Below, piece by piece: positions 33,425-40,583 of a stretch of 56,283 bases of DNA. A model generated the notes under the pieces. The model was not told the DNA's origin. It worked only from the letters and a program-made list of their open reading frames with translations, and ran no database searches. Position numbers and translations under genes: made by a program. The stretch is from a virus. How positions within the stretch are numbered: position 1 is the stretch's first letter; every line of letters starts with the position of its first letter. The stretch lies in the UHGV virus genome UHGV-0315882; one strand, written 5' to 3'.

Positions 33425-33681
33425 GTAAGCCTCTTTTAAGTAACTATTAAGTTTTAATCTTTTATCTTAACGTATTCTATACGTTATACTTTAAAGCTTT
33501 TTAAAAGCTATTAAATAATCTTTTAAGAGTTTTAAAGTATCTGTATAGTTAAACTGTTAAGTAACCTTTTAAGTAAAAACCCACTTCGCAAAGATTAACA
33601 CCTTGTCAAGTGCATTGTCAACTTGCTTTTTATAATTTTTTGCAGTAATGTATGAGGTTAATGATTTTAGAGGGAGTAAAA
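33425..33681. promoter_or_regulatory. AT-rich divergent control region
   Basis: Consensus TATAAT at 33631-33636 upstream of the polymerase ATG; repeated CTTTTAAG/TTTAAAG motifs; small inverted repeat ACGTAT/ATACGT (33471-33486). Confidence 0.45.
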
Positions 33682-36381
33682 ATGGAAAACGTAGATTTTA
33701 AAAACTTACATTTGGTTGGTGATACAGAAACTGATGGTTTACTCCTTGAGTTCACTAAAGTGCACGTAATGGCTTTCGCAGACTATAAATCTGACGATGA
33801 AGAGCCACCTGTATGGGTCTTTACAGATGAACCTATCCTCGGTCACAAGTATACCAAGTACATTAAGGGTGGCTTACGTGAAGGTGTTGAATTTGCGTTA
33901 AAGGCAAAACGTCTTTGCATCCATAATGGTCTCGGTTATGACTGGTGGGTTTTCAATCACATTGCACCTGATTTGTGGAACTTTGATAATCCAAAATGTA
34001 AGCCGTGGAGTAATTTCTTTCAGGATTCTCTTATCCAGTCTCGTGTTCAGTGGATGGATAGACCAACTCCAAAGGGCTATAAAGGTGCTCATGGTTTGGC
34101 TGCATGGGGTGCTCGTGTTGGTGTTCGTAAACCAGAGATTGAACATTGGGGTGTGTGGAATGCAGAAATCTTCACTCGTGTTGTAGAAGATATCCGTATT
34201 AACGCCAAAACTAAACGGGCGCTTGATAATGAATATCTCAAGCTTAAGAAGTGTGGCATAGACACTTATGAAACCTACATGCGAGCTAAAGAAACATCTT
34301 TCTGGATGAGTCAACAAGCTATCAATGGCTGGAAAGCTGATAAAGAGCTTATGGAGTTCCATGTAAAGGAACTTGACAAGTTGACTAATGAGCTTGCTTC
34401 AGAGGTTGAACCACATCTACCTCCAACTATTAAGACCAAAGGTAAAGTAACTGGTGAAGAGTTTGCAAAGGCTTGGAATGAGTATGTTGAAACATTTGGT
34501 CATGCAGATGGGTTGAAGAGAATCACCAAGTATCCTAAGACGAAGTACCGTCAACAGGTGCGTAACGGTGAGATGCAGACATACGAAATCAAACCATTTG
34601 GTAAGCCAACTACAAAGATTTTTAACATTGAAAAGAGAAATTGCTATACACCAACCAACTCTGTAACTGGTGAAGAGTACAAGGAAGGCTTTGTAGCAAT
34701 GAAGGATGCTCGTGCAATTTGCAATGAGTTGAATGCAAAGATTGGTAAGAAATGCAAAGACTGGAAGCCAGTGAAAACAGTCAAAACTGTGAAGTACTAT
34801 AACAGTCACGTTGTTAACCACTTTGAACTTGAGTCAAGTCGATACACAGGTTTGATTGATGCACCATATACACCAATTGATTTTGAAGTTTCTCGTATGA
34901 CTCAGGTAGCAGTTGTTAAAGACTACTTGAAATCAGTTGGTTGGATTCCAGATGACTGGAACTACAAGAAAGACTCAGATGGTCGCCCTGTCAAAGTTTG
35001 TCGTTTCAAAGACAATAAAAAGATGATTACAAAACATCCTAAGTGGCAGGAAATGGTTGAGCGGTGTGGTTTGAGCTATGTTGAACATGAAGGTGTACAG
35101 TACATTGAACATAACTGGTCTGTGAAGAAGTACACAGATTTGCTTGAGCCTTGCTTAATCCGTACTTCACCAAAGCTTACTGAGTCATCTTATGATACGA
35201 TTGAAGGTGAACTTGGACAGAAGATTGCTAAGTACTATACTTTGATGCACCGACGCAGAACTATTGAGAACTCAAAGGATGATGAAAAAGGTTGGTTGAA
35301 CCAGATTCGTCCTGATGGTCGCCTTAGTGCTGGTGCAATGGTGTTTGGTACTTCAACTGGACGTATGACACAATATGGTATTGTAAACGTACCGTCTGGT
35401 GCTGCTGTCTATGGGGAACCAATGAGGGCAGTGTGGATTTGTGAGGAAGGTACTAACGTTGTCTCTGTAGATATGAACTCAGCCCAGCTAGTTCTACTTT
35501 GTAACTTTATGGGTGATAAAGACTTCACCAAAGCGGTAACGCAAGGTAAAGAAGAAATTGAGTTCATTCGTCAAGAAGATGGACGCTATTACTGCAAACA
35601 CTTTGATGAGTACCTCAACCCAGAGATTGATAAGTACCTTCGCTATGACTCTGAGAATGACCTGTACGTTGTCTATTCAGGGACTGATGCACATACACTG
35701 AACAGTATTTACTTTAGCTTGAATGATGAGCAGGACATCTTGACTTGTCGAGCTACTCAGGATGAGAATCTTCTTCATGAGATTAGCAAAGGTCGTAAGA
35801 AAGCTAAGAATGGTATCTATGCACTGCTGTTCGGTGCAGGTGATGAGAAGTTTGCTAAGACGATTAAAGCTGCGACTACTCAGGAAGGTGCGCTGACTAA
35901 ACAGACTTACTTTATACGTTTGCCTAAAATTAAGAAGCTACTAGATGACTTGGAAGCTGACTACAAAGCAACTAAAAAGGCACTTGAAGAGGTGTTTGGT
36001 AAGACTGCTGCAATCTCTAAAGGGGGTTTTGTAAAGGTTGCTGGAGCTTGGTTGTGGTGTAAATCTCCACATAAGTTATTGAATTATTTGCTTATGGGTT
36101 CGGAAAGTCAGATTCAGAACGAGGCAATTAACCTTGCTTGCCGTCGTATGATTGACGAAGGTTTGATGAAGTTGAACGGTCGCAAACCCGCTATAGGTGC
36201 TCGTTTATTGTGCTCCTATCACGACGAGACAAGTTGGGAATGCCCAGAAAGTATGACGGCAGAGGTGAAGGCTGTTACTGATTGGTATTACGGGCAAGCC
36301 TCTAAGAACTTAGGACTAAAAAGTGAAACACTGGTAACTGGTACTGGTAAGGTTGGCAAATCGTGGTTGGAAGTGCATTAA
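33682..36381 (+). CDS. DNA polymerase, family A (T7-like) with 3'-5' exonuclease domain
   Basis: Start trimmed to MENVDF with GAGGGAG RBS; Exo I DTETDG; motifs resembling pol A motif A (VDMNSAQL), motif B (KNGIYALLFG) and motif C (YHDE). Confidence 0.85.
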   Translation: MENVDFKNLHLVGDTETDGLLLEFTKVHVMAFADYKSDDEEPPVWVFTDEPILGHKYTKYIKGGLREGVEFALKAKRLCIHNGLGYDWWVFNHIAPDLWNFDNPKCKPWSNFFQDSLIQSRVQWMDRPTPKGYKGAHGLAAWGARVGVRKPEIEHWGVWNAEIFTRVVEDIRINAKTKRALDNEYLKLKKCGIDTYETYMRAKETSFWMSQQAINGWKADKELMEFHVKELDKLTNELASEVEPHLPPTIKTKGKVTGEEFAKAWNEYVETFGHADGLKRITKYPKTKYRQQVRNGEMQTYEIKPFGKPTTKIFNIEKRNCYTPTNSVTGEEYKEGFVAMKDARAICNELNAKIGKKCKDWKPVKTVKTVKYYNSHVVNHFELESSRYTGLIDAPYTPIDFEVSRMTQVAVVKDYLKSVGWIPDDWNYKKDSDGRPVKVCRFKDNKKMITKHPKWQEMVERCGLSYVEHEGVQYIEHNWSVKKYTDLLEPCLIRTSPKLTESSYDTIEGELGQKIAKYYTLMHRRRTIENSKDDEKGWLNQIRPDGRLSAGAMVFGTSTGRMTQYGIVNVPSGAAVYGEPMRAVWICEEGTNVVSVDMNSAQLVLLCNFMGDKDFTKAVTQGKEEIEFIRQEDGRYYCKHFDEYLNPEIDKYLRYDSENDLYVVYSGTDAHTLNSIYFSLNDEQDILTCRATQDENLLHEISKGRKKAKNGIYALLFGAGDEKFAKTIKAATTQEGALTKQTYFIRLPKIKKLLDDLEADYKATKKALEEVFGKTAAISKGGFVKVAGAWLWCKSPHKLLNYLLMGSESQIQNEAINLACRRMIDEGLMKLNGRKPAIGARLLCSYHDETSWECPESMTAEVKAVTDWYYGQASKNLGLKSETLVTGTGKVGKSWLEVH

Positions 36382-36391
36382 TGGTGACAAA

Positions 36392-36919
36392 ATGATTACA
36401 CAAGAACGTTTAAAGGAGCTACTACACTATGACCCCGAAACAGGGGTCTTTACTTGGCTTCGTAGAGAGGGTGACTCAAGGGCTGTTAAAGTCTTTAATA
36501 GTAAGTACGCAGGACAGGTAGCGGGGAGCATCCAGATTGACTCAACTAGTCATAAGCAGATTACTATCTATTTTGACAAGAAAGCACATAAAGCACACAG
36601 ACTCGCATGGCTGTACGTGTATGGTAGGCTACCGAAAGGTGTTATTGACCATATTAATGGGGACTCCCTTGATAACAGGGTTGTAAACTTAAGAGAAGCA
36701 GATGACTGCCAAAGTGCTTGGAATAAAAGCAAACTATCCACCAATAAATCAGGCTATAAGGGTGTAAGCCTGAAGAAGAAGTCTGGTAGGTGGGTTGCGC
36801 AAATAAGCTATAAAGGTAAAAAGATGTCATTAGGTTACTATGACACACCAGAAGAGGCCCATAAAGCTTACTGTGAAGCTGCTATTAAACTCCACGGAGA
36901 ATTTGCAAAACTAAGTTGA
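36392..36919 (+). CDS. HNH homing endonuclease with C-terminal AP2 DNA-binding domain
   Basis: HRLAWLYVYG...DHINGDSLDNRVVNL (HNH) and YKGVS...GRWVAQI...YDTPEEAHKAY...HGEFA (AP2-like); start trimmed to MITQE. Confidence 0.65.
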   Translation: MITQERLKELLHYDPETGVFTWLRREGDSRAVKVFNSKYAGQVAGSIQIDSTSHKQITIYFDKKAHKAHRLAWLYVYGRLPKGVIDHINGDSLDNRVVNLREADDCQSAWNKSKLSTNKSGYKGVSLKKKSGRWVAQISYKGKKMSLGYYDTPEEAHKAYCEAAIKLHGEFAKLS

Positions 36920-36970: not shown

Positions 36971-37180
36971 ATGAGCCACCGTGGAAGAACCCATGCAGCG
37001 ATGATGAAAGGTGCTTCAAAGGAGACTATCAAAAATCGTAAGCAGAAGTTGTTTGAGAGAATGAACAGGTTAATTGACAATTCATCTCTTTCAGGTTCTG
37101 AGAAGGTTTTCTTGAAAGGGAATCTGAAAAGTATTGCACAGGAACTTATGGATATTGAATTTTGGAGAAACCAAAAATGA
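36971..37180 (+). CDS. hypothetical protein (69 aa)
   Basis: AGGAGGG RBS upstream. Confidence 0.5.
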   Translation: MSHRGRTHAAMMKGASKETIKNRKQKLFERMNRLIDNSSLSGSEKVFLKGNLKSIAQELMDIEFWRNQK

Positions 37181-37389
37181 CTTATGAAGAAGCTGTTGAA
37201 GCAATGAAGCAAGGTAAGAAGGTTCGTAATGAGAACTTCACATCTGATGAGTTCTTTGAAATGAAAGATGGAAAGATTGTCTGTGAAATGGGTTACCCGA
37301 TGGCTTCATGGTATCGTGGTCTTGATTGGCAGAAATCTGGGTGGAGCATTGTGCAAGACTCTCCAAAAGCATCTGACTTATTCTTTTAA
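37177..37389 (+). CDS. DUF2829-like small protein (71 aa)
   Basis: Start at MTYEEAVEAMKQGKKV with GGAGA RBS and ATGA overlap; N-terminal motif resembles the DUF2829 family hallmark as recalled from memory. Confidence 0.4.
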   Translation: MTYEEAVEAMKQGKKVRNENFTSDEFFEMKDGKIVCEMGYPMASWYRGLDWQKSGWSIVQDSPKASDLFF

Positions 37390-37398
37390 GGAAAAGAT

Positions 37399-37605
37399 AT
37401 GGAAGCCTTAGTAAACTATATCTACTGTTATGATGTTGTTCACTCCACTACAACCGTAGCTCAATGTAACCCAATCGTCCCACGAGAGGGTGAGTTGGTT
37501 CGAATCGAGGGTTGGACTTACACTGTGGGGAGCATCATTCATAAGTTTGATGTTGCTGGTGATGTTCAAGTCATCGACGTAGAGATTGTTGGTAAAAGAA
37601 AATGA
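37399..37605 (+). CDS. hypothetical protein (68 aa)
   Basis: ORF in tight plus-strand array. Confidence 0.45.
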   Translation: MEALVNYIYCYDVVHSTTTVAQCNPIVPREGELVRIEGWTYTVGSIIHKFDVAGDVQVIDVEIVGKRK

Positions 37606-37787
37606 AAACAGAACCTGTAAAAACTGAAGATGGAAACATTGAGACATTCTCAATCACAGTCGCTGGTGATGAGTTCTCTTGCAAATGTGGGTGTAACTGC
37701 TTTCATAAACCAGATAAAACAAAACTTGGTCTTTATGAATGTAATAGTTGTGGGTTGAGGTTCTTAGACAAAAGCAAGGATATGTGA
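37602..37787 (+). CDS. small zinc-ribbon protein (61 aa), paralog of 38115-38306
   Basis: FSITVAGDEFSCKCGCNCFHKPDK...LYECNSC; shares this pattern with 38115-38306. Confidence 0.5.
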   Translation: MKTEPVKTEDGNIETFSITVAGDEFSCKCGCNCFHKPDKTKLGLYECNSCGLRFLDKSKDM

Positions 37788-38035
37788 TGAAGATAACTCA
37801 AGAAATGAAGAAGTTGTATGAGGGAAGTGTGAAGATTCCACCAAGAACTGATGCAAAGAAGTTACTATTCAACTCTTGGATGAATGATTGCACGTATGAG
37901 CAATACTACTTTAAAGTAATAGCATCAGGTGAAAGACCAGAATCACCAGAATATTATGAAAGTTACATAATGTGGCGTGATGAAAAATGTTTAGACTTCT
38001 ACGAAAGATACATGGAAGCAGTAAATTCAATTTAA
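37787..38035 (+). CDS. hypothetical protein (82 aa)
   Basis: Start trimmed to MKITQEM with AAGGA RBS. Confidence 0.45.
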   Translation: MKITQEMKKLYEGSVKIPPRTDAKKLLFNSWMNDCTYEQYYFKVIASGERPESPEYYESYIMWRDEKCLDFYERYMEAVNSI

Positions 38036-38114
38036 TCACTGGAGAAGACTTTGGTAGATGTGCTTGGCGCTACTTCTACTCAAAAGGCTGCATAGCTTGT
38101 GAGGCAAGAGATAA

Positions 38115-38306
38115 ATGAACAAAGAAGATAAGCATAAAAATGCTGTACGAACTCCTGATGGAAAGGTTCAATCCTTCATCCTGACAGTTGGTGGAAAGCC
38201 GTTTCGTTGCCACTGCGGAGCGAACTGTTTTCATAAACCAGATAAAAATGACTTAGAGCTTTACGCATGTAATGCTTGCAATACTTGGTATCACTCAGAG
38301 GAATAA
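38115..38306 (+). CDS. small zinc-ribbon protein (63 aa), paralog of 37602-37787
   Basis: FILTVGGKPFRCHCGANCFHKPDK...LYACNAC. Confidence 0.5.
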   Translation: MNKEDKHKNAVRTPDGKVQSFILTVGGKPFRCHCGANCFHKPDKNDLELYACNACNTWYHSEE

Positions 38307-38307
38307 A

Positions 38308-39411
38308 ATGACAATTCTATACAAACAAAATAAAGACGGCTCTTTCAACGTTTGGTCATGCGTTGCTGTAGGTGATAAAGTTGTTACAACCTACGGTAAA
38401 GAAAATGGCAAGATGATGTTTGAAGAGTATACAGCAGAACCTAAAAACATCGGTAAAAAGAATGAGCGTAACGCTGAACAGCAAGCTCTCTTTGAAGTTG
38501 CTGCAAAGTATAAAAAGCAGGTTGACCGCAAAGGTTATGCTTACACAAAAGAGTCTGCACAGAATACTGAGAAGGTAGGTGTACAGCTTGCTCATGATGC
38601 TGCAAAGGTTAGTCATGCAAAGTATTTGAAATTCCCTGCTGATGCTCAACCGAAGCTTGATGGTGTACGTTGTAGAATTTCAAGACACTTAAGCATTGGT
38701 AGCGTATTCACAGCATACTCTCGTGAGAATACTGTTTATAAAATCCCTACTGAACTCATACCTGACATTATGGCAATGTTAAGGCTCCACAAAGATGTTG
38801 ATGAGTTTGATGGAGAGATTTATGCTCATGGGTGGGACTTAGAAGATATCGTCTCTATGATTAAAAATGAAGACAATCCTGACAGACACCTGCTCAAGTT
38901 TTACTGGTATGATATCTGTGACAGTACTAAGACGTGGCCTGAGCGTAGAGATATCATTGAGACTTCACCATTGAATGGCTTTAGAGATGGCTGTAAAGTT
39001 GTCCCTGTTAAGTCTCGTCGTGTAAATTCTTGGGAAGAATTTGATGAAGCTCATGATAAGTGGGTTGAAGCTAAGTTTGAAGGTGCAATGTACCGTTCAA
39101 TCTCTGAAGACTCCTTCTATGAGTGTTGTCACCGTTCATACTTCTTGATTAAGCACAAGAAGATGCACACTGAAGAGTTTAAAGTAACTGGTGTCAAGAC
39201 TGATAAACGTGGACATGGCAAGTTCGTTGTAGAGACTCTTCCTAACGTCTTTGTAGATGTCTCATGGAAGACTACTCATGAGAAGAAACAGTATCTTGCT
39301 GAGCATCCTGAAGAGTTTATTGGGAAACCTTTAACGGTTCAGTTCCAGAAGATGACTCGTAAAGGTTCTTTACAGTTCCCTGTTGGGTTAGTTATTCGAG
39401 ACTACGAATAA
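38308..39411 (+). CDS. ATP-dependent DNA ligase-like protein
   Basis: Nucleotidyltransferase motif I KLDG (PKLDGVRC); GAGGA RBS; ~367 aa. Confidence 0.6.
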   Translation: MTILYKQNKDGSFNVWSCVAVGDKVVTTYGKENGKMMFEEYTAEPKNIGKKNERNAEQQALFEVAAKYKKQVDRKGYAYTKESAQNTEKVGVQLAHDAAKVSHAKYLKFPADAQPKLDGVRCRISRHLSIGSVFTAYSRENTVYKIPTELIPDIMAMLRLHKDVDEFDGEIYAHGWDLEDIVSMIKNEDNPDRHLLKFYWYDICDSTKTWPERRDIIETSPLNGFRDGCKVVPVKSRRVNSWEEFDEAHDKWVEAKFEGAMYRSISEDSFYECCHRSYFLIKHKKMHTEEFKVTGVKTDKRGHGKFVVETLPNVFVDVSWKTTHEKKQYLAEHPEEFIGKPLTVQFQKMTRKGSLQFPVGLVIRDYE

Positions 39412-39418
39412 AAAGTTG

Positions 39419-39446
39419 TTGACATAGAAAATTTGGTGAGTATACT
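39419..39446 (+). promoter_or_regulatory. Strong sigma70-like promoter
   Basis: TTGACA (39419-39424), 16 bp spacer, TATACT (39441-39446). Confidence 0.55.
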
Positions 39447-39620: not shown

Positions 39621-39649
39621 TTGACAAGTCAGGTGTTATAGCTTATTTT
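39621..39649 (+). promoter_or_regulatory. Candidate sigma70-like promoter
   Basis: TTGACA (39621-39626), 17 bp spacer, TATTTT; ~45 bp upstream of the 39694 start codon. Confidence 0.4.
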
Positions 39650-40078: not shown

Positions 40079-40291
40079 ATGGCTCTTAAAAAGTTACATC
40101 CCAGAAGCGGTTATGGTAAGATAATTGACGATACAGACGGCTTTACAGTCTTTACAGTCATCTGTCAAGATGATTCACAGATTGAGAAGGCTCTTGATGA
40201 TTATCTCAACGATGAACGTGAAAAGGTTAGGGCTACAAACATAGATTCATTGATTGACACTTCACGCAAACGGAAGAAGAAAGATGAATGA
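40079..40291 (+). CDS. hypothetical protein (70 aa)
   Basis: ORF in tight plus-strand array. Confidence 0.45.
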   Translation: MALKKLHPRSGYGKIIDDTDGFTVFTVICQDDSQIEKALDDYLNDEREKVRATNIDSLIDTSRKRKKKDE

Positions 40292-40583
40292 GGTTTTTGA
40301 CCCTTATGCTCCACAAGATGATTGGGAGGCTGACAGAGAGGCTGAAATGGAGAGTTATATTTGTCCAATGGATGTAGACGAAATGAGAGACTTCGTTGCA
40401 CATCGTTTTAAGAGAGAGATTAAATCCAGAGGTCTTTCTCAAGAGCAAGTTGCTAAAATTTGTGGTATCTCTCAGGCTCGTGTATCCAACATAATCCACC
40501 TCACTGGTAATGTCTCCCTTGAGTATATGTTGGAAGTATGCGAAAAATTTGGTGTTAATTTTAATTTAAGGCTGGCAGATTAA
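40284..40583 (+). CDS. helix-turn-helix domain protein, putative transcriptional regulator (99 aa)
   Basis: LSQEQVAKICGISQARVSNI resembles an XRE-type HTH; start trimmed to MNEVF. Confidence 0.5.
   Translation: MNEVFDPYAPQDDWEADREAEMESYICPMDVDEMRDFVAHRFKREIKSRGLSQEQVAKICGISQARVSNIIHLTGNVSLEYMLEVCEKFGVNFNLRLAD

What the first reader, a model, noticed from the sequence alone, without database searches (positions are those of the whole stretch)
37602..38306. Duplicated small zinc-ribbon genes
ORFs 37602-37787 and 38115-38306 share a clear pattern (TVxGxxFxCxCGxNCFHKPDK, LYxCNxC) but differ elsewhere, indicating an old duplication retained ~300 bp apart in the DNA-replication gene block.
Basis: seen in the sequence. 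Interest (0 to 1): 0.4.

Follow-up and report, generated by a model that had tools for sequence, protein, structure and literature searches.

The report
Tandem diverged phage zinc-ribbon genes
Two small zinc-ribbon genes lying 327 bp apart in a FelixO1-like phage are two diverged versions of one dispensable accessory gene that recombination has placed side by side, and a close relative in phage Bas63 has been reported to set off the bacterial Hhe defence system.

Summary
ORFs 37602-37787 (A, 61 aa) and 38115-38306 (B, 63 aa) are true homologues: 26/49 residues identical, E 5e-21, and both match PHROG 5768.

The window is a Felixounavirus genome. The family is a large, unnamed, phage-wide Cys4 zinc ribbon (C-x-C...C-x2-C plus an N-[VC]-F-H-K-P-D loop). 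It has 502 clusters at 50% identity and no Pfam or PDB relative.

"Old duplication retained" is only partly right. A and B are alleles of one slot between a 68-aa gene and the ligase gene. Most relatives carry one copy: B-type, or A-type as in EC106 and phiSUSP1. Phage L27 carries none. Only 9 of 185 matching phage records have two copies flanking an 82-aa gene.

A 25-nt conserved core (24/25 identical) is a crossover point. The FelixO1/Bas63 gene and a metagenomic gene are exact upstream-N-half/downstream-C-half chimeras.

Links to the ligase are not conserved outside Ounavirinae.

Bas63 gp40 is 78% identical to B. A preprint reports that its disruption raises phage fitness under several defence systems and that it is toxic only in cells carrying Hhe. 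The native biochemical function is unknown.

This is an ordinary accessory-gene mosaic with a neat recombination story.

The parts
37602..37787 (+). Zinc-ribbon gene A (61 aa; N1+C1 allele). Its start overlaps the stop of the upstream 68-aa gene (ATGA).
   Evidence: ORF. phrog_5768 E 2.8e-29. 90% identical to the single-copy gene of EC106 and phiSUSP1. dN/dS 0.11 against EC106. The exact protein is on at least 24 metagenomic contigs.
37695..37719 (+). Conserved core in A, encoding N-C-F-H-K-P-D-K. It forms a direct repeat with 38223-38247 (24/25 nt identical, offset 528 bp).
   Evidence: Codon-register alignment. The crossover points of the chimeric genes map here.
37787..38035 (+). p82: an 82-aa gene (phrog_32421, unknown function) carried between the two zinc-ribbon genes. 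Its ATG shares one base with the stop codon of A.
   Evidence: phrog_32421 E 7.6e-41. Found in only 12 phage records. AF2 predicts four helices, pLDDT 92, with no Foldseek match. Restricted to felixounaviruses.
38036..38114 (+). 79-nt spacer that travels with p82. Its 3' end (GGCAAGAGATAAATGA) resembles the 3' end of the 68-aa gene (in relatives GGTAAGAGAAAATGA).
   Evidence: In L27 and A132 the spacer precedes the ligase gene; in two-copy genomes it precedes B.
38115..38306 (+). Zinc-ribbon gene B (63 aa; N2+C2 allele). This is the common Escherichia-type copy, directly upstream of the ligase gene.
   Evidence: ORF. phrog_5768 E 1.6e-40. 100% identical in many felixounaviruses. 78% identical to Bas63 gp40. 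AF2 model pLDDT 89, all-beta.
38223..38247 (+). Conserved core in B, the partner of 37695-37719.
37399..37605 (+). Upstream flank: conserved 68-aa gene (phrog_4427). It is the left border of the variable slot.
38308..39411 (+). Downstream flank: ATP-dependent DNA ligase. It is the right border of the variable slot.
   Evidence: PF01068 and PF14743; phrog_114 E 3.8e-95.

Best explanation
A and B are two diverged alleles of one non-essential accessory gene of Ounavirinae phages. The family is PHROG 5768, represented by FelixO1 ORF210 and Bas63 gp40. Each encodes a roughly 60-residue all-beta Cys4 zinc ribbon.

In this genome, inter-phage recombination has juxtaposed the phiSUSP1/EC106-type allele (A) and the wV8-type allele (B), with an 82-aa passenger gene between them. 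They sit in a hypervariable slot between a 68-aa gene and the ligase gene. All are co-translated from the polymerase-to-ligase transcript through overlapping stop and start codons.

The two copies share a 25-nt core that encodes the invariant loop. Crossovers within it exchange N- and C-terminal halves, and when they occur between the tandem copies they delete 528 bp and leave a chimeric single gene.

Functional inference: the protein acts by binding a host or phage macromolecule during early or middle infection, and the Hhe helicase-nuclease defence system senses it or its activity. That would make it a target of arms-race selection and would explain the allele diversity, half-shuffling, loss and occasional doubling.

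Shown here: homology, zinc-ligand conservation, purifying selection, combinatorial slot structure, chimeric alleles, dispensability. Taken from a preprint on the orthologue: disruption of Bas63 g40 raises phage fitness under several defence systems, and g40 is toxic only in cells carrying Hhe. Inferred: the origin by juxtaposition, binding as the mode of action, and the arms-race rationale.
For: Homology and family:
- establish homology.
- The family has 502 clusters at 50% identity.
- Invariant positions over 149 representatives: C32 149/149, C34 146/148, C52 147/147, C55 146/146, N37 145/149, N53 145/146.
- AF2 model: pLDDT 89, all-beta.

Slot states:
- B only: SP3, FelixO1.
- A only: EC106, and phiSUSP1.
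- A'+p82+B: pSJ21, EC6, BPS17W1.
- p82 only: L27, A132.
- Breakpoints fall at gene edges. Relative to L27 the window has extra sequence at exactly 37607-37786 and 38119-38305.

Chimeras:
- The Logan contig gene equals the window A N-half (112/114 nt) plus the window B C-half (62/63 nt).
- The FelixO1 gene equals the EC6 upstream-copy N-half (125/129) plus the EC6 downstream-copy C-half (57/57).
- Fisher p ranges from 1e-7 to 1e-16.
- Five of six possible N/C combinations are observed.

Selection: dN/dS is 0.1-0.3 for A, p82 and B, while the flanks have dS about 0.2 and A versus A' is saturated.

Stability: both copies are intact in 12 distinct metagenomic loci whose ligase genes are 89-100% identical to the window's.

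Dispensability: L27 lacks the family entirely (best hit E 0.07, noise).

Bas63:
- bas63_0040 is the orthologue (78% to B, 52% to A).
- The paper's gene numbering was checked against locus tags.
- The preprint reports that g40 became 'more nonessential' in several defence systems and was toxic only in Hhe cells (PMC11482910).
Against: - The direction of events cannot be fixed. An ancestral two-copy state followed by repeated precise losses would give the same set of arrangements.
- The sequences are short (about 60 codons), so phylogenetic resolution is low.
- The Hhe result comes from a single preprint assay on a different allele (N3+C2). It identifies a liability, not the native function.
- No partner, nucleic-acid target or zinc content has been measured.
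- The proteins are near neutral in charge (my count from the sequences, not a tool result), which gives no clear hint for DNA binding or DNA mimicry.
- dN/dS below 1 shows no sign of diversifying selection within alleles.
- The advantage of keeping two copies of a defence trigger is unexplained.
Confidence: 0.6

Rival explanations
1. Ancient in-situ tandem duplication. The ancestor carried A-p82-B. The paralogues subfunctionalised, and most lineages later lost one or both copies.
For: Same family, same strand, adjacent, and both under purifying selection. Deletion between the copies demonstrably produces single chimeric genes of the FelixO1 and Logan types, so at least some single-copy states derive from two-copy states.
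Against: Two copies occur in only 9 of 185 records. A-only and B-only genomes have clean gene-boundary junctions, not chimeric ones. A is as distant from B as from homologues in unrelated phage genera, and its N-half is closest to Klebsiella phage FKP3. The A and p82 modules differ far more between two-copy genomes (61-70% aa) than their flanks do (93-100%).
Confidence: 0.15
2. The zinc ribbons are accessory subunits of the phage ATP-dependent DNA ligase or of the replisome, for example a nick- or DNA-binding module like the zinc finger of eukaryotic ligase III (that comparison rests on my own knowledge).
For: Immediate adjacency to the ligase gene across Felixounavirus and Suspvirus, and in one unrelated IMG/VR lineage (L066). 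Some GenBank records label the 63-aa protein 'DNA ligase'.
Against: L27, A126 and A132 keep the ligase without any family member. In Kolesnikvirus, Loessnervirus, Justusliebigvirus and an Arthrobacter phage the homologue is not next to a ligase. Only 2 of 25 surveyed distant loci have a neighbouring ligase. The 'DNA ligase' label is an annotation and clustering artefact: the protein has no ligase domain, and it is clustered with full-length ligases that contain no ribbon sequence.
Confidence: 0.08
3. The proteins are small nucleic-acid-binding regulators (transcription or translation factors of the zinc-ribbon type, like TFIIS/TFS-type or ribosomal zinc ribbons). The two copies would recognise different targets.
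For: The weak Foldseek neighbours are generic zinc ribbons from ribosomal proteins, TFS4 and RNA-polymerase subunits. The genes sit in an early/middle operon.
Against: No Foldseek match better than E 0.27. By my count from the sequences the net charge is about -1 (A) and +1 (B), so the proteins are not basic. The gene is dispensable. There is no conserved partner gene or site.
Confidence: 0.12
4. Assembly artefact: two co-infecting strains with different alleles were collapsed into one contig.
For: The window appears to be a metagenome-assembled scaffold (100% match to ENA ERZ28592827 scaffold_1).
Against: The same architecture is present in seven independently sequenced isolate genomes. The identical A protein occurs in the same A-p82-B order in 12 distinct contigs from different samples and genetic backgrounds.
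Confidence: 0.01

Closest known systems
Bas63 (Escherichia phage JohannRWettstein) gp40 = bas63_0040, which has the same allele type as FelixO1 ORF210
   Same: Orthologous position (68-aa gene, zinc ribbon, ligase). Same family. 78% identical to B and 52% to A. Its C-terminal half is nearly identical to that of B.
   Different: It is a single copy with a different N-terminal half (N3) and a 9-residue longer tail. It is itself the chimeric N3+C2 form expected from crossover between the copies of a pSJ21/EC6-type two-copy genome. Its reported Hhe-trigger phenotype (PMC11482910) has not been tested for A or B.
CSL-type zinc finger (DPH3/Kti11/DESR1, PF05207)
   Same: Small all-beta zinc module with a C-x-C-G first knuckle and a C-x2-C second knuckle. 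It is the top Foldseek PDB hit (2jr7), and hhalign places the four Cys in register.
   Different: No Pfam hit. hhalign probability 2%. Foldseek E 0.48 and TM 0.37. The characteristic C-P-S-C-S-L motif is absent. This is a resemblance only.
Lar-type restriction-alleviation zinc ribbons (PF14354) and other small phage zinc ribbons
   Same: Small cysteine-rich early phage proteins. One metagenomic protein fuses a Lar domain to this domain.
   Different: A and B do not match PF14354. The first knuckle is C-x-C rather than C-x2-C. Lar is only one of many unrelated N-terminal partners.
Modular shuffling of small early genes in T4-type and other virulent phages (own knowledge: hyperplastic regions, Hendrix mosaicism model, Arbiol et al. 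2010)
   Same: Gene-sized cassettes are present or absent between conserved flanks, with junctions at gene borders and short junction homologies.
   Different: No promoter-stem-loop cassette is seen at the junctions. Here an additional intragenic joint, the 25-nt core, shuffles half-genes.

Membership tests
PHROG 5768 / Bas63 gp40-FelixO1 ORF210 zinc-ribbon family | Full-length match to the family profile | tested here: met
   A: E 2.8e-29 over residues 2-60. B: E 1.6e-40 over residues 1-63. The own-built HMM scores 86 and 107 bits.
PHROG 5768 / Bas63 gp40-FelixO1 ORF210 zinc-ribbon family | Four invariant Cys (C-x-C ... C-x2-C), plus the N-x-F-H-K-P-D loop and the Y-x-C-N-x-C knuckle | tested here: met
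   All are present in A and B. Family-wide frequencies are 96-100% for the Cys and Asn positions.
PHROG 5768 / Bas63 gp40-FelixO1 ORF210 zinc-ribbon family | Compact all-beta zinc-ribbon fold | tested here: met
   AF2 model of B with a 65-sequence alignment: pLDDT 89.2, pTM 0.72, strands only. This is a prediction; zinc binding has not been measured.
PHROG 5768 / Bas63 gp40-FelixO1 ORF210 zinc-ribbon family | Activates the Hhe defence system, and disruption raises phage fitness under several defence systems (reported for Bas63 gp40) | not testable with these tools
   Reported only for bas63_0040 in PMC11482910. Dispensability is supported indirectly by L27, which lacks the family.
CSL zinc finger (DPH3/Kti11, PF05207) | Match to the Pfam model, or significant profile-profile or structural similarity | tested here: not met
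   No Pfam hit at E <= 1. hhalign probability 2.1%. Foldseek E 0.48.
Lar restriction-alleviation protein (PF14354) | Match to PF14354 | tested here: not met
   No hit for A or B. The Lar domain appears only as a separate N-terminal domain in one fusion protein.
ATP-dependent DNA ligase (label given to the 63-aa protein in some GenBank records) | Nucleotidyltransferase or OB ligase domains | tested here: not met
   No PF01068 or PF14743 hit in A or B. Both domains are in the next gene, 38308-39411. The label is traced to annotation transfer and clustering.
Lineage-specific tandem paralogues (in-situ duplication) | The copies are each other's closest relatives, and the two-copy state is widespread in the clade | tested here: not met
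   A is 53% identical to B but 50-64% to many unrelated representatives, and its N-half is 78% identical to FKP3. Two copies occur in 9 of 185 records. A-type is the sole copy in phiSUSP1 and EC106.

The most novel reading that the evidence does not exclude
The invariant 25-nt core is more than a by-product of protein constraint. It would work as a built-in recombination joint that lets Ounavirinae phages recombine N-terminal and C-terminal specificity halves of a defence-sensed protein (an Hhe trigger). Two-copy genomes would be the reservoirs and intermediates of this half-gene shuffling, giving an escape-by-shuffling strategy for a trigger protein. The two co-resident copies might also act together, for example as a heterodimer or as a decoy for the sensor.
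Probability: 0.15. Interest if true: 0.6.

Novelty: new member of a known kind. Interest (0 to 1): 0.3.

Why it matters
The result gives an anonymous but very widespread small phage protein family a defined signature (Cys4 ribbon plus an N-x-F-H-K-P-D loop). It connects that signature to the only experimental phenotype available, Bas63 gp40 as a trigger of Hhe.

It also shows that the type phage FelixO1 and the model phage Bas63 carry a recombinant allele. The parental halves of that allele still sit side by side in a few genomes such as this one.

A two-copy phage is therefore a natural tool for asking which half of the protein Hhe senses and what the protein does for the phage.

In itself, a pair of diverged small accessory genes in a hypervariable phage region is ordinary.

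Tried and rejected
- Pfam, NCBIfam and PADLOC scans of A, B, p82 and neighbouring genes returned nothing for A, B or p82.
- A PDB sequence-profile search returned only insignificant C2H2-linker look-alikes, best E 0.006 over about 20 residues.
- Foldseek of the B model against PDB and BFVD gave nothing below E 0.27.
- The CSL/DPH3 idea was rejected (hhalign probability 2%).
- The word-indexed protein search found only 6 close relatives of B and 5 of p82. The exhaustive profile search was needed to see the family.
- N-terminal fusion partners (Lar, NUDIX, dATP/dGTP pyrophosphohydrolase, RyR, Tad2-like, DUF2934) are all singletons among 85 long members. They look like incidental fusions of neighbouring small genes and give no functional hint.
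- A neighbour survey of 25 distant loci (96 ORFs) found no recurrent partner.
- The promoter and terminator scan found nothing inside the block.
- The nucleotide conservation of the core does not extend to distant phages, so no DNA-level function is required.
- The p82 structure (pLDDT 92) has no fold match.
- The vB_SflM_004 'two places' hit is set aside because that record looks like a patchwork assembly.
- The paper's supplementary tables were not available.

Full report
**1. Observation**

The window is a segment of a Felixounavirus (FelixO1-like myovirus, Ounavirinae). A 2.6-kb piece around the finding matches 260 phage records at 80-99% identity, nearly all of them Escherichia, Salmonella or Shigella felixounaviruses. 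The window is 100% identical, over all genes tested, to an 87.8-kb ENA metagenome scaffold.

On the + strand, between the DNA polymerase gene (33652-36381) and an ATP-dependent ligase gene (38308-39411), lie these genes:
- an HNH-AP2 endonuclease gene;
- several small ORFs;
- a 68-aa gene (37399-37605);
- gene A (37602-37787, 61 aa);
- an 82-aa gene, p82 (37787-38035);
- a 79-nt spacer;
- gene B (38115-38306, 63 aa).

A and B align without gaps over 49 residues with 26 identities (E 5e-21). Both match phrog_5768 end to end. A family HMM finds exactly two copies in the window.

**2. The protein family**

A and B have no Pfam, NCBIfam or PADLOC match. Public names for members are only 'hypothetical protein' or a mis-transferred 'DNA ligase'.

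An exhaustive profile search of 1.84 billion cluster representatives found 502 clusters at E <= 1e-3 and 107 at E <= 1e-10. Most are 55-75 aa. Many are 90-200 aa with the domain at the C-terminus.

Conservation over 149 representatives, in B numbering:

| Position | Residue | Frequency |
|---|---|---|
| 32 | Cys | 149/149 |
| 34 | Cys | 146/148 |
| 52 | Cys | 147/147 |
| 55 | Cys | 146/146 |
| 37 | Asn | 145/149 |
| 53 | Asn | 145/146 |
| 39 | Phe | 143/148 |
| 42 | Pro | 137/149 |
| 40 | His | 129/148 |

The extra Cys at position 38 in A and B is Val in most members. The family is therefore a Cys4 site of the form C-x-C-x17-C-x2-C with a conserved N-[VC]-F-H-K-P-D loop.

AlphaFold2 with a 65-sequence alignment gives a confident all-beta model (pLDDT 89, pTM 0.72). 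Foldseek finds nothing significant in PDB (best hit DPH3/DESR1 CSL zinc finger, E 0.48) or in BFVD (best E 0.27). A PDB sequence-profile search gives only noise. hhalign against yeast Kti11 lines up the four Cys but with 2% probability. The fold is a zinc ribbon; there is no evidence of membership in any named family.

The N-terminal extensions of long members are heterogeneous and each is a singleton: Lar, NUDIX, dATP/dGTP pyrophosphohydrolase, RyR, Tad2-like, DUF2934. I read them as incidental fusions of adjacent small genes.

**3. The locus is a combinatorial slot, and A and B are alleles of it**

Comparing loci from related phages gives five states between the 68-aa gene and the ligase gene:
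- (i) B-type only: SP3, wV8 and many others. FelixO1 has a variant of this.
- (ii) A-type only: EC106, and phiSUSP1 of the sister genus Suspvirus, whose protein is identical to EC106's and 90% identical to window A.
- (iii) A single A/B chimera: a 75-kb Logan contig.
- (iv) Upstream copy, p82, spacer, then B: pSJ21, EC6, BPS17W1/15S6/17S6, DE17, KEP2, and the window.
- (v) p82 plus spacer only, with no zinc-ribbon gene: L27, A126, A132.

Breakpoints coincide with gene borders. Relative to L27 the window has extra sequence at exactly 37607-37786 (= A) and 38119-38305 (= B). Relative to EC106 it has extra 37791-38307.

All junctions are stop/start overlaps of the ...AAATGA type. The 3' end of the spacer resembles the 3' end of the 68-aa gene.

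In the phage collection, 185 records match the 705-nt block. Nine of them, representing seven phages, carry the whole two-copy block, and three carry p82 alone.

The exact A protein occurs on at least 24 assembled contigs. In all 12 distinct loci examined the order is A-p82-B-ligase with both ribbons intact, in backgrounds whose ligase is only 89-100% identical to the window's. The arrangement is real and stable enough to spread.

**4. Divergence pattern**

Between the window and pSJ21, EC6 or BPS17W1:

| Gene | Amino-acid identity | dS |
|---|---|---|
| 68-aa gene, B, ligase | 93-100% | about 0.06-0.3 |
| Upstream ribbon | 61-66% | saturated |
| p82 | 68-70% | 0.7-1.3 |

All dN/dS values are 0.1-0.3, so the genes are under purifying selection and are not decaying.

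A is 53% identical to B. It is 50-64% identical to many representatives from unrelated phages, and its N-half is 78% identical to that of Klebsiella phage FKP3.

A and B are therefore not a lineage-specific pair. The simplest reading is that alleles of one slot, diverged in different Ounavirinae lineages and exchanged with other phages, were brought together by recombination. An ancient duplication followed by multiple precise losses cannot be excluded, but it fits the distribution and the clean single-copy junctions less well.

**5. Half-gene mosaicism at a conserved core**

A and B are 62% identical at the nucleotide level. They share a stretch with 24/25 identical nucleotides (37695-37719 and 38223-38247, offset 528 bp) that encodes N-C-F-H-K-P-D-K.

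Alleles fall into three N-half types and two C-half types:
- N1: window A, EC106, the chimera.
- N2: window B, SP3.
- N3: the pSJ21/EC6 upstream copy, FelixO1, Bas63.
- C1: window A, EC106, the pSJ21/EC6 upstream copy.
- C2: window B, SP3, FelixO1, Bas63, the chimera.

Five of the six possible combinations are observed.

At the nucleotide level:
- The Logan gene matches window A at 112/114 positions up to the core and window B at 62/63 after it.
- The FelixO1 gene matches the EC6 upstream copy at 125/129 before the core and the EC6 downstream copy at 57/57 after it.
- Fisher p values range from 1e-7 to 1e-16.

These are exactly the products expected from crossover in the core between the tandem copies of the two known kinds of two-copy genome, deleting p82. 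An equivalent inter-genomic exchange would give the same products.

Synonymous variation in the core among distant phages shows that its nucleotide identity comes from protein constraint and codon bias, not from a separate DNA-level function. p82 is itself mosaic in its C-terminal third.

**6. Function**

*Linkage to the ligase.* Linkage is limited to Ounavirinae and one other lineage. In Kolesnikvirus the homologue lies between an NrdA-like ORF and the polynucleotide-kinase region. In Loessnervirus it lies among small ORFs near an SSB gene. In Justusliebigvirus it is next to a methyltransferase. In an Arthrobacter phage it is near HNH and methylase genes. In 25 distant IMG/VR loci, 96 neighbouring ORFs show no recurrent partner.

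*Dispensability.* The complete L27 genome has no family member, so the gene is dispensable and is not an obligatory ligase cofactor.

*Experimental evidence.* The one experimental handle is Bas63 (MZ501086). bas63_0040, directly upstream of the ligase gene, is the N3+C2 allele, 78% identical to B and 52% to A.

I checked that the PhageMaP preprint's gene numbers equal the locus tags:
- g79/g80 are the PRPP synthetase and NAMPT.
- g84/85 are rIIA and rIIB.
- g123 is the endolysin.
- g124 is the Ig-like protein.
- g130 lies upstream of the tRNA genes.

The preprint reports that disruption of g40 made the phage fitter ('more nonessential') in several defence systems. It also reports that plasmid expression of g40 was toxic only in cells carrying the helicase-nuclease system Hhe, and the authors call it an Hhe trigger (PMC11482910).

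*Working model.* My best-supported model is a small zinc-ribbon binding protein of the early/middle programme, non-essential in the laboratory. Either the protein or its activity is sensed by at least one defence system. That gives a rationale for allele turnover, half-shuffling, loss (L27) and occasional doubling. The native target and the benefit of carrying two copies remain unknown. These steps are inference.

**7. Verdict**

The finding is real, but its interpretation needs correcting. It is not a retained old duplication tied to replication. It is two diverged alleles of a dispensable, widespread, unnamed zinc-ribbon accessory gene, juxtaposed in a recombination-prone slot. The type phage's own allele is a recombinant of such a pair.

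The result is modestly interesting as a natural experiment on an Hhe-trigger family. Otherwise it is typical phage accessory-gene mosaicism.

Noticed in passing
window 40284-40583 (+): This 99-aa HTH protein is 100% identical to Bas63-035. A 2026 preprint (10.64898/2026.04.18.719102) identifies Bas63-035 as the phage factor that activates the DRT7 reverse-transcriptase defence system. This block therefore holds at least two reported defence triggers within about 2.5 kb.
   Followed up: partly
window 37162-37389 (+): A 75-aa ORF has a weak Thoeris-anti-defence Tad2-like (PF11195) match over its N-terminal 34 residues, E 1.9e-4 and below the Pfam cut-off. It also hits phrog_3474. It is present in only some relatives, about 95% identical in phiSUSP1 and SUSP2, and replaced by a DUF4884 ORF in others.
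   Followed up: partly
window 37987-38118 (+): A 43-aa ORF overlaps the end of p82 and ends in an ATGA overlap with the start of B. It stays open in all loci examined and is annotated in EC6. However, most differences between spacer alleles change the amino acid, and 27 stop-free codons are not unusual. I cannot tell whether this is a real gene or just a conserved spacer holding the ribosome-binding site.
   Followed up: partly
window 38272-39411 versus 38308-39411: The longest ligase ORF starts at ATG 38272 and overlaps the last 35 nt of B. Bas63 and some gene callers annotate this 378/379-aa form. ATG 38308 is preceded by GAGGAA and matches the 366/367-aa form used in most records, so the short form is probably the real one.
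   Followed up: partly
window 36353-36919 (+), and L001, L004, L005: An HNH_3 + AP2 homing-endonuclease gene sits directly after, and slightly overlapping, an intact 909-aa DNA polymerase gene. In pSJ21, EC106, L27 and the Logan contig the polymerase is annotated in two pieces with a gap between them, and the HNH gene varies from 45% to 100% identity or is absent. This is another mobile-element-driven variable spot.
   Followed up: no
window 37787-38035 and L016, L019, L021, L022: p82 is itself mosaic. Contigs carrying the identical A protein have p82 alleles that share the first two thirds but switch to the EC6/BPS17W1-type sequence in the last third.
   Followed up: partly
window 39419-39446 (+): The best sigma-70-like promoter match in the region (TTGACA-16-TATACT, 11/12) lies just after the ligase stop codon, with a second at 39621-39649. 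None lies inside the polymerase-to-ligase block, which suggests one long transcript followed by a new unit.
   Followed up: no
GenBank records (e.g. BPS17W1_66/68, pSJ21, adrianh, SapYZU01, Fifi44 gp41) and protein cluster 3: The 61-72-aa zinc-ribbon proteins are labelled 'DNA ligase' in several records. In the 90% clustering, Bas63 gp40 is grouped with full-length ligases that contain no ribbon sequence. This is an annotation and clustering artefact that propagates.
   Followed up: yes
L033 (MK295205.1, Shigella phage vB_SflM_004): This record has a B-type gene placed between head-protease or capsid fragments and Mooglevirus-like genes, plus a second match elsewhere. It looks like a patchwork or mis-assembled genome and was left out of the counts.
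   Followed up: no
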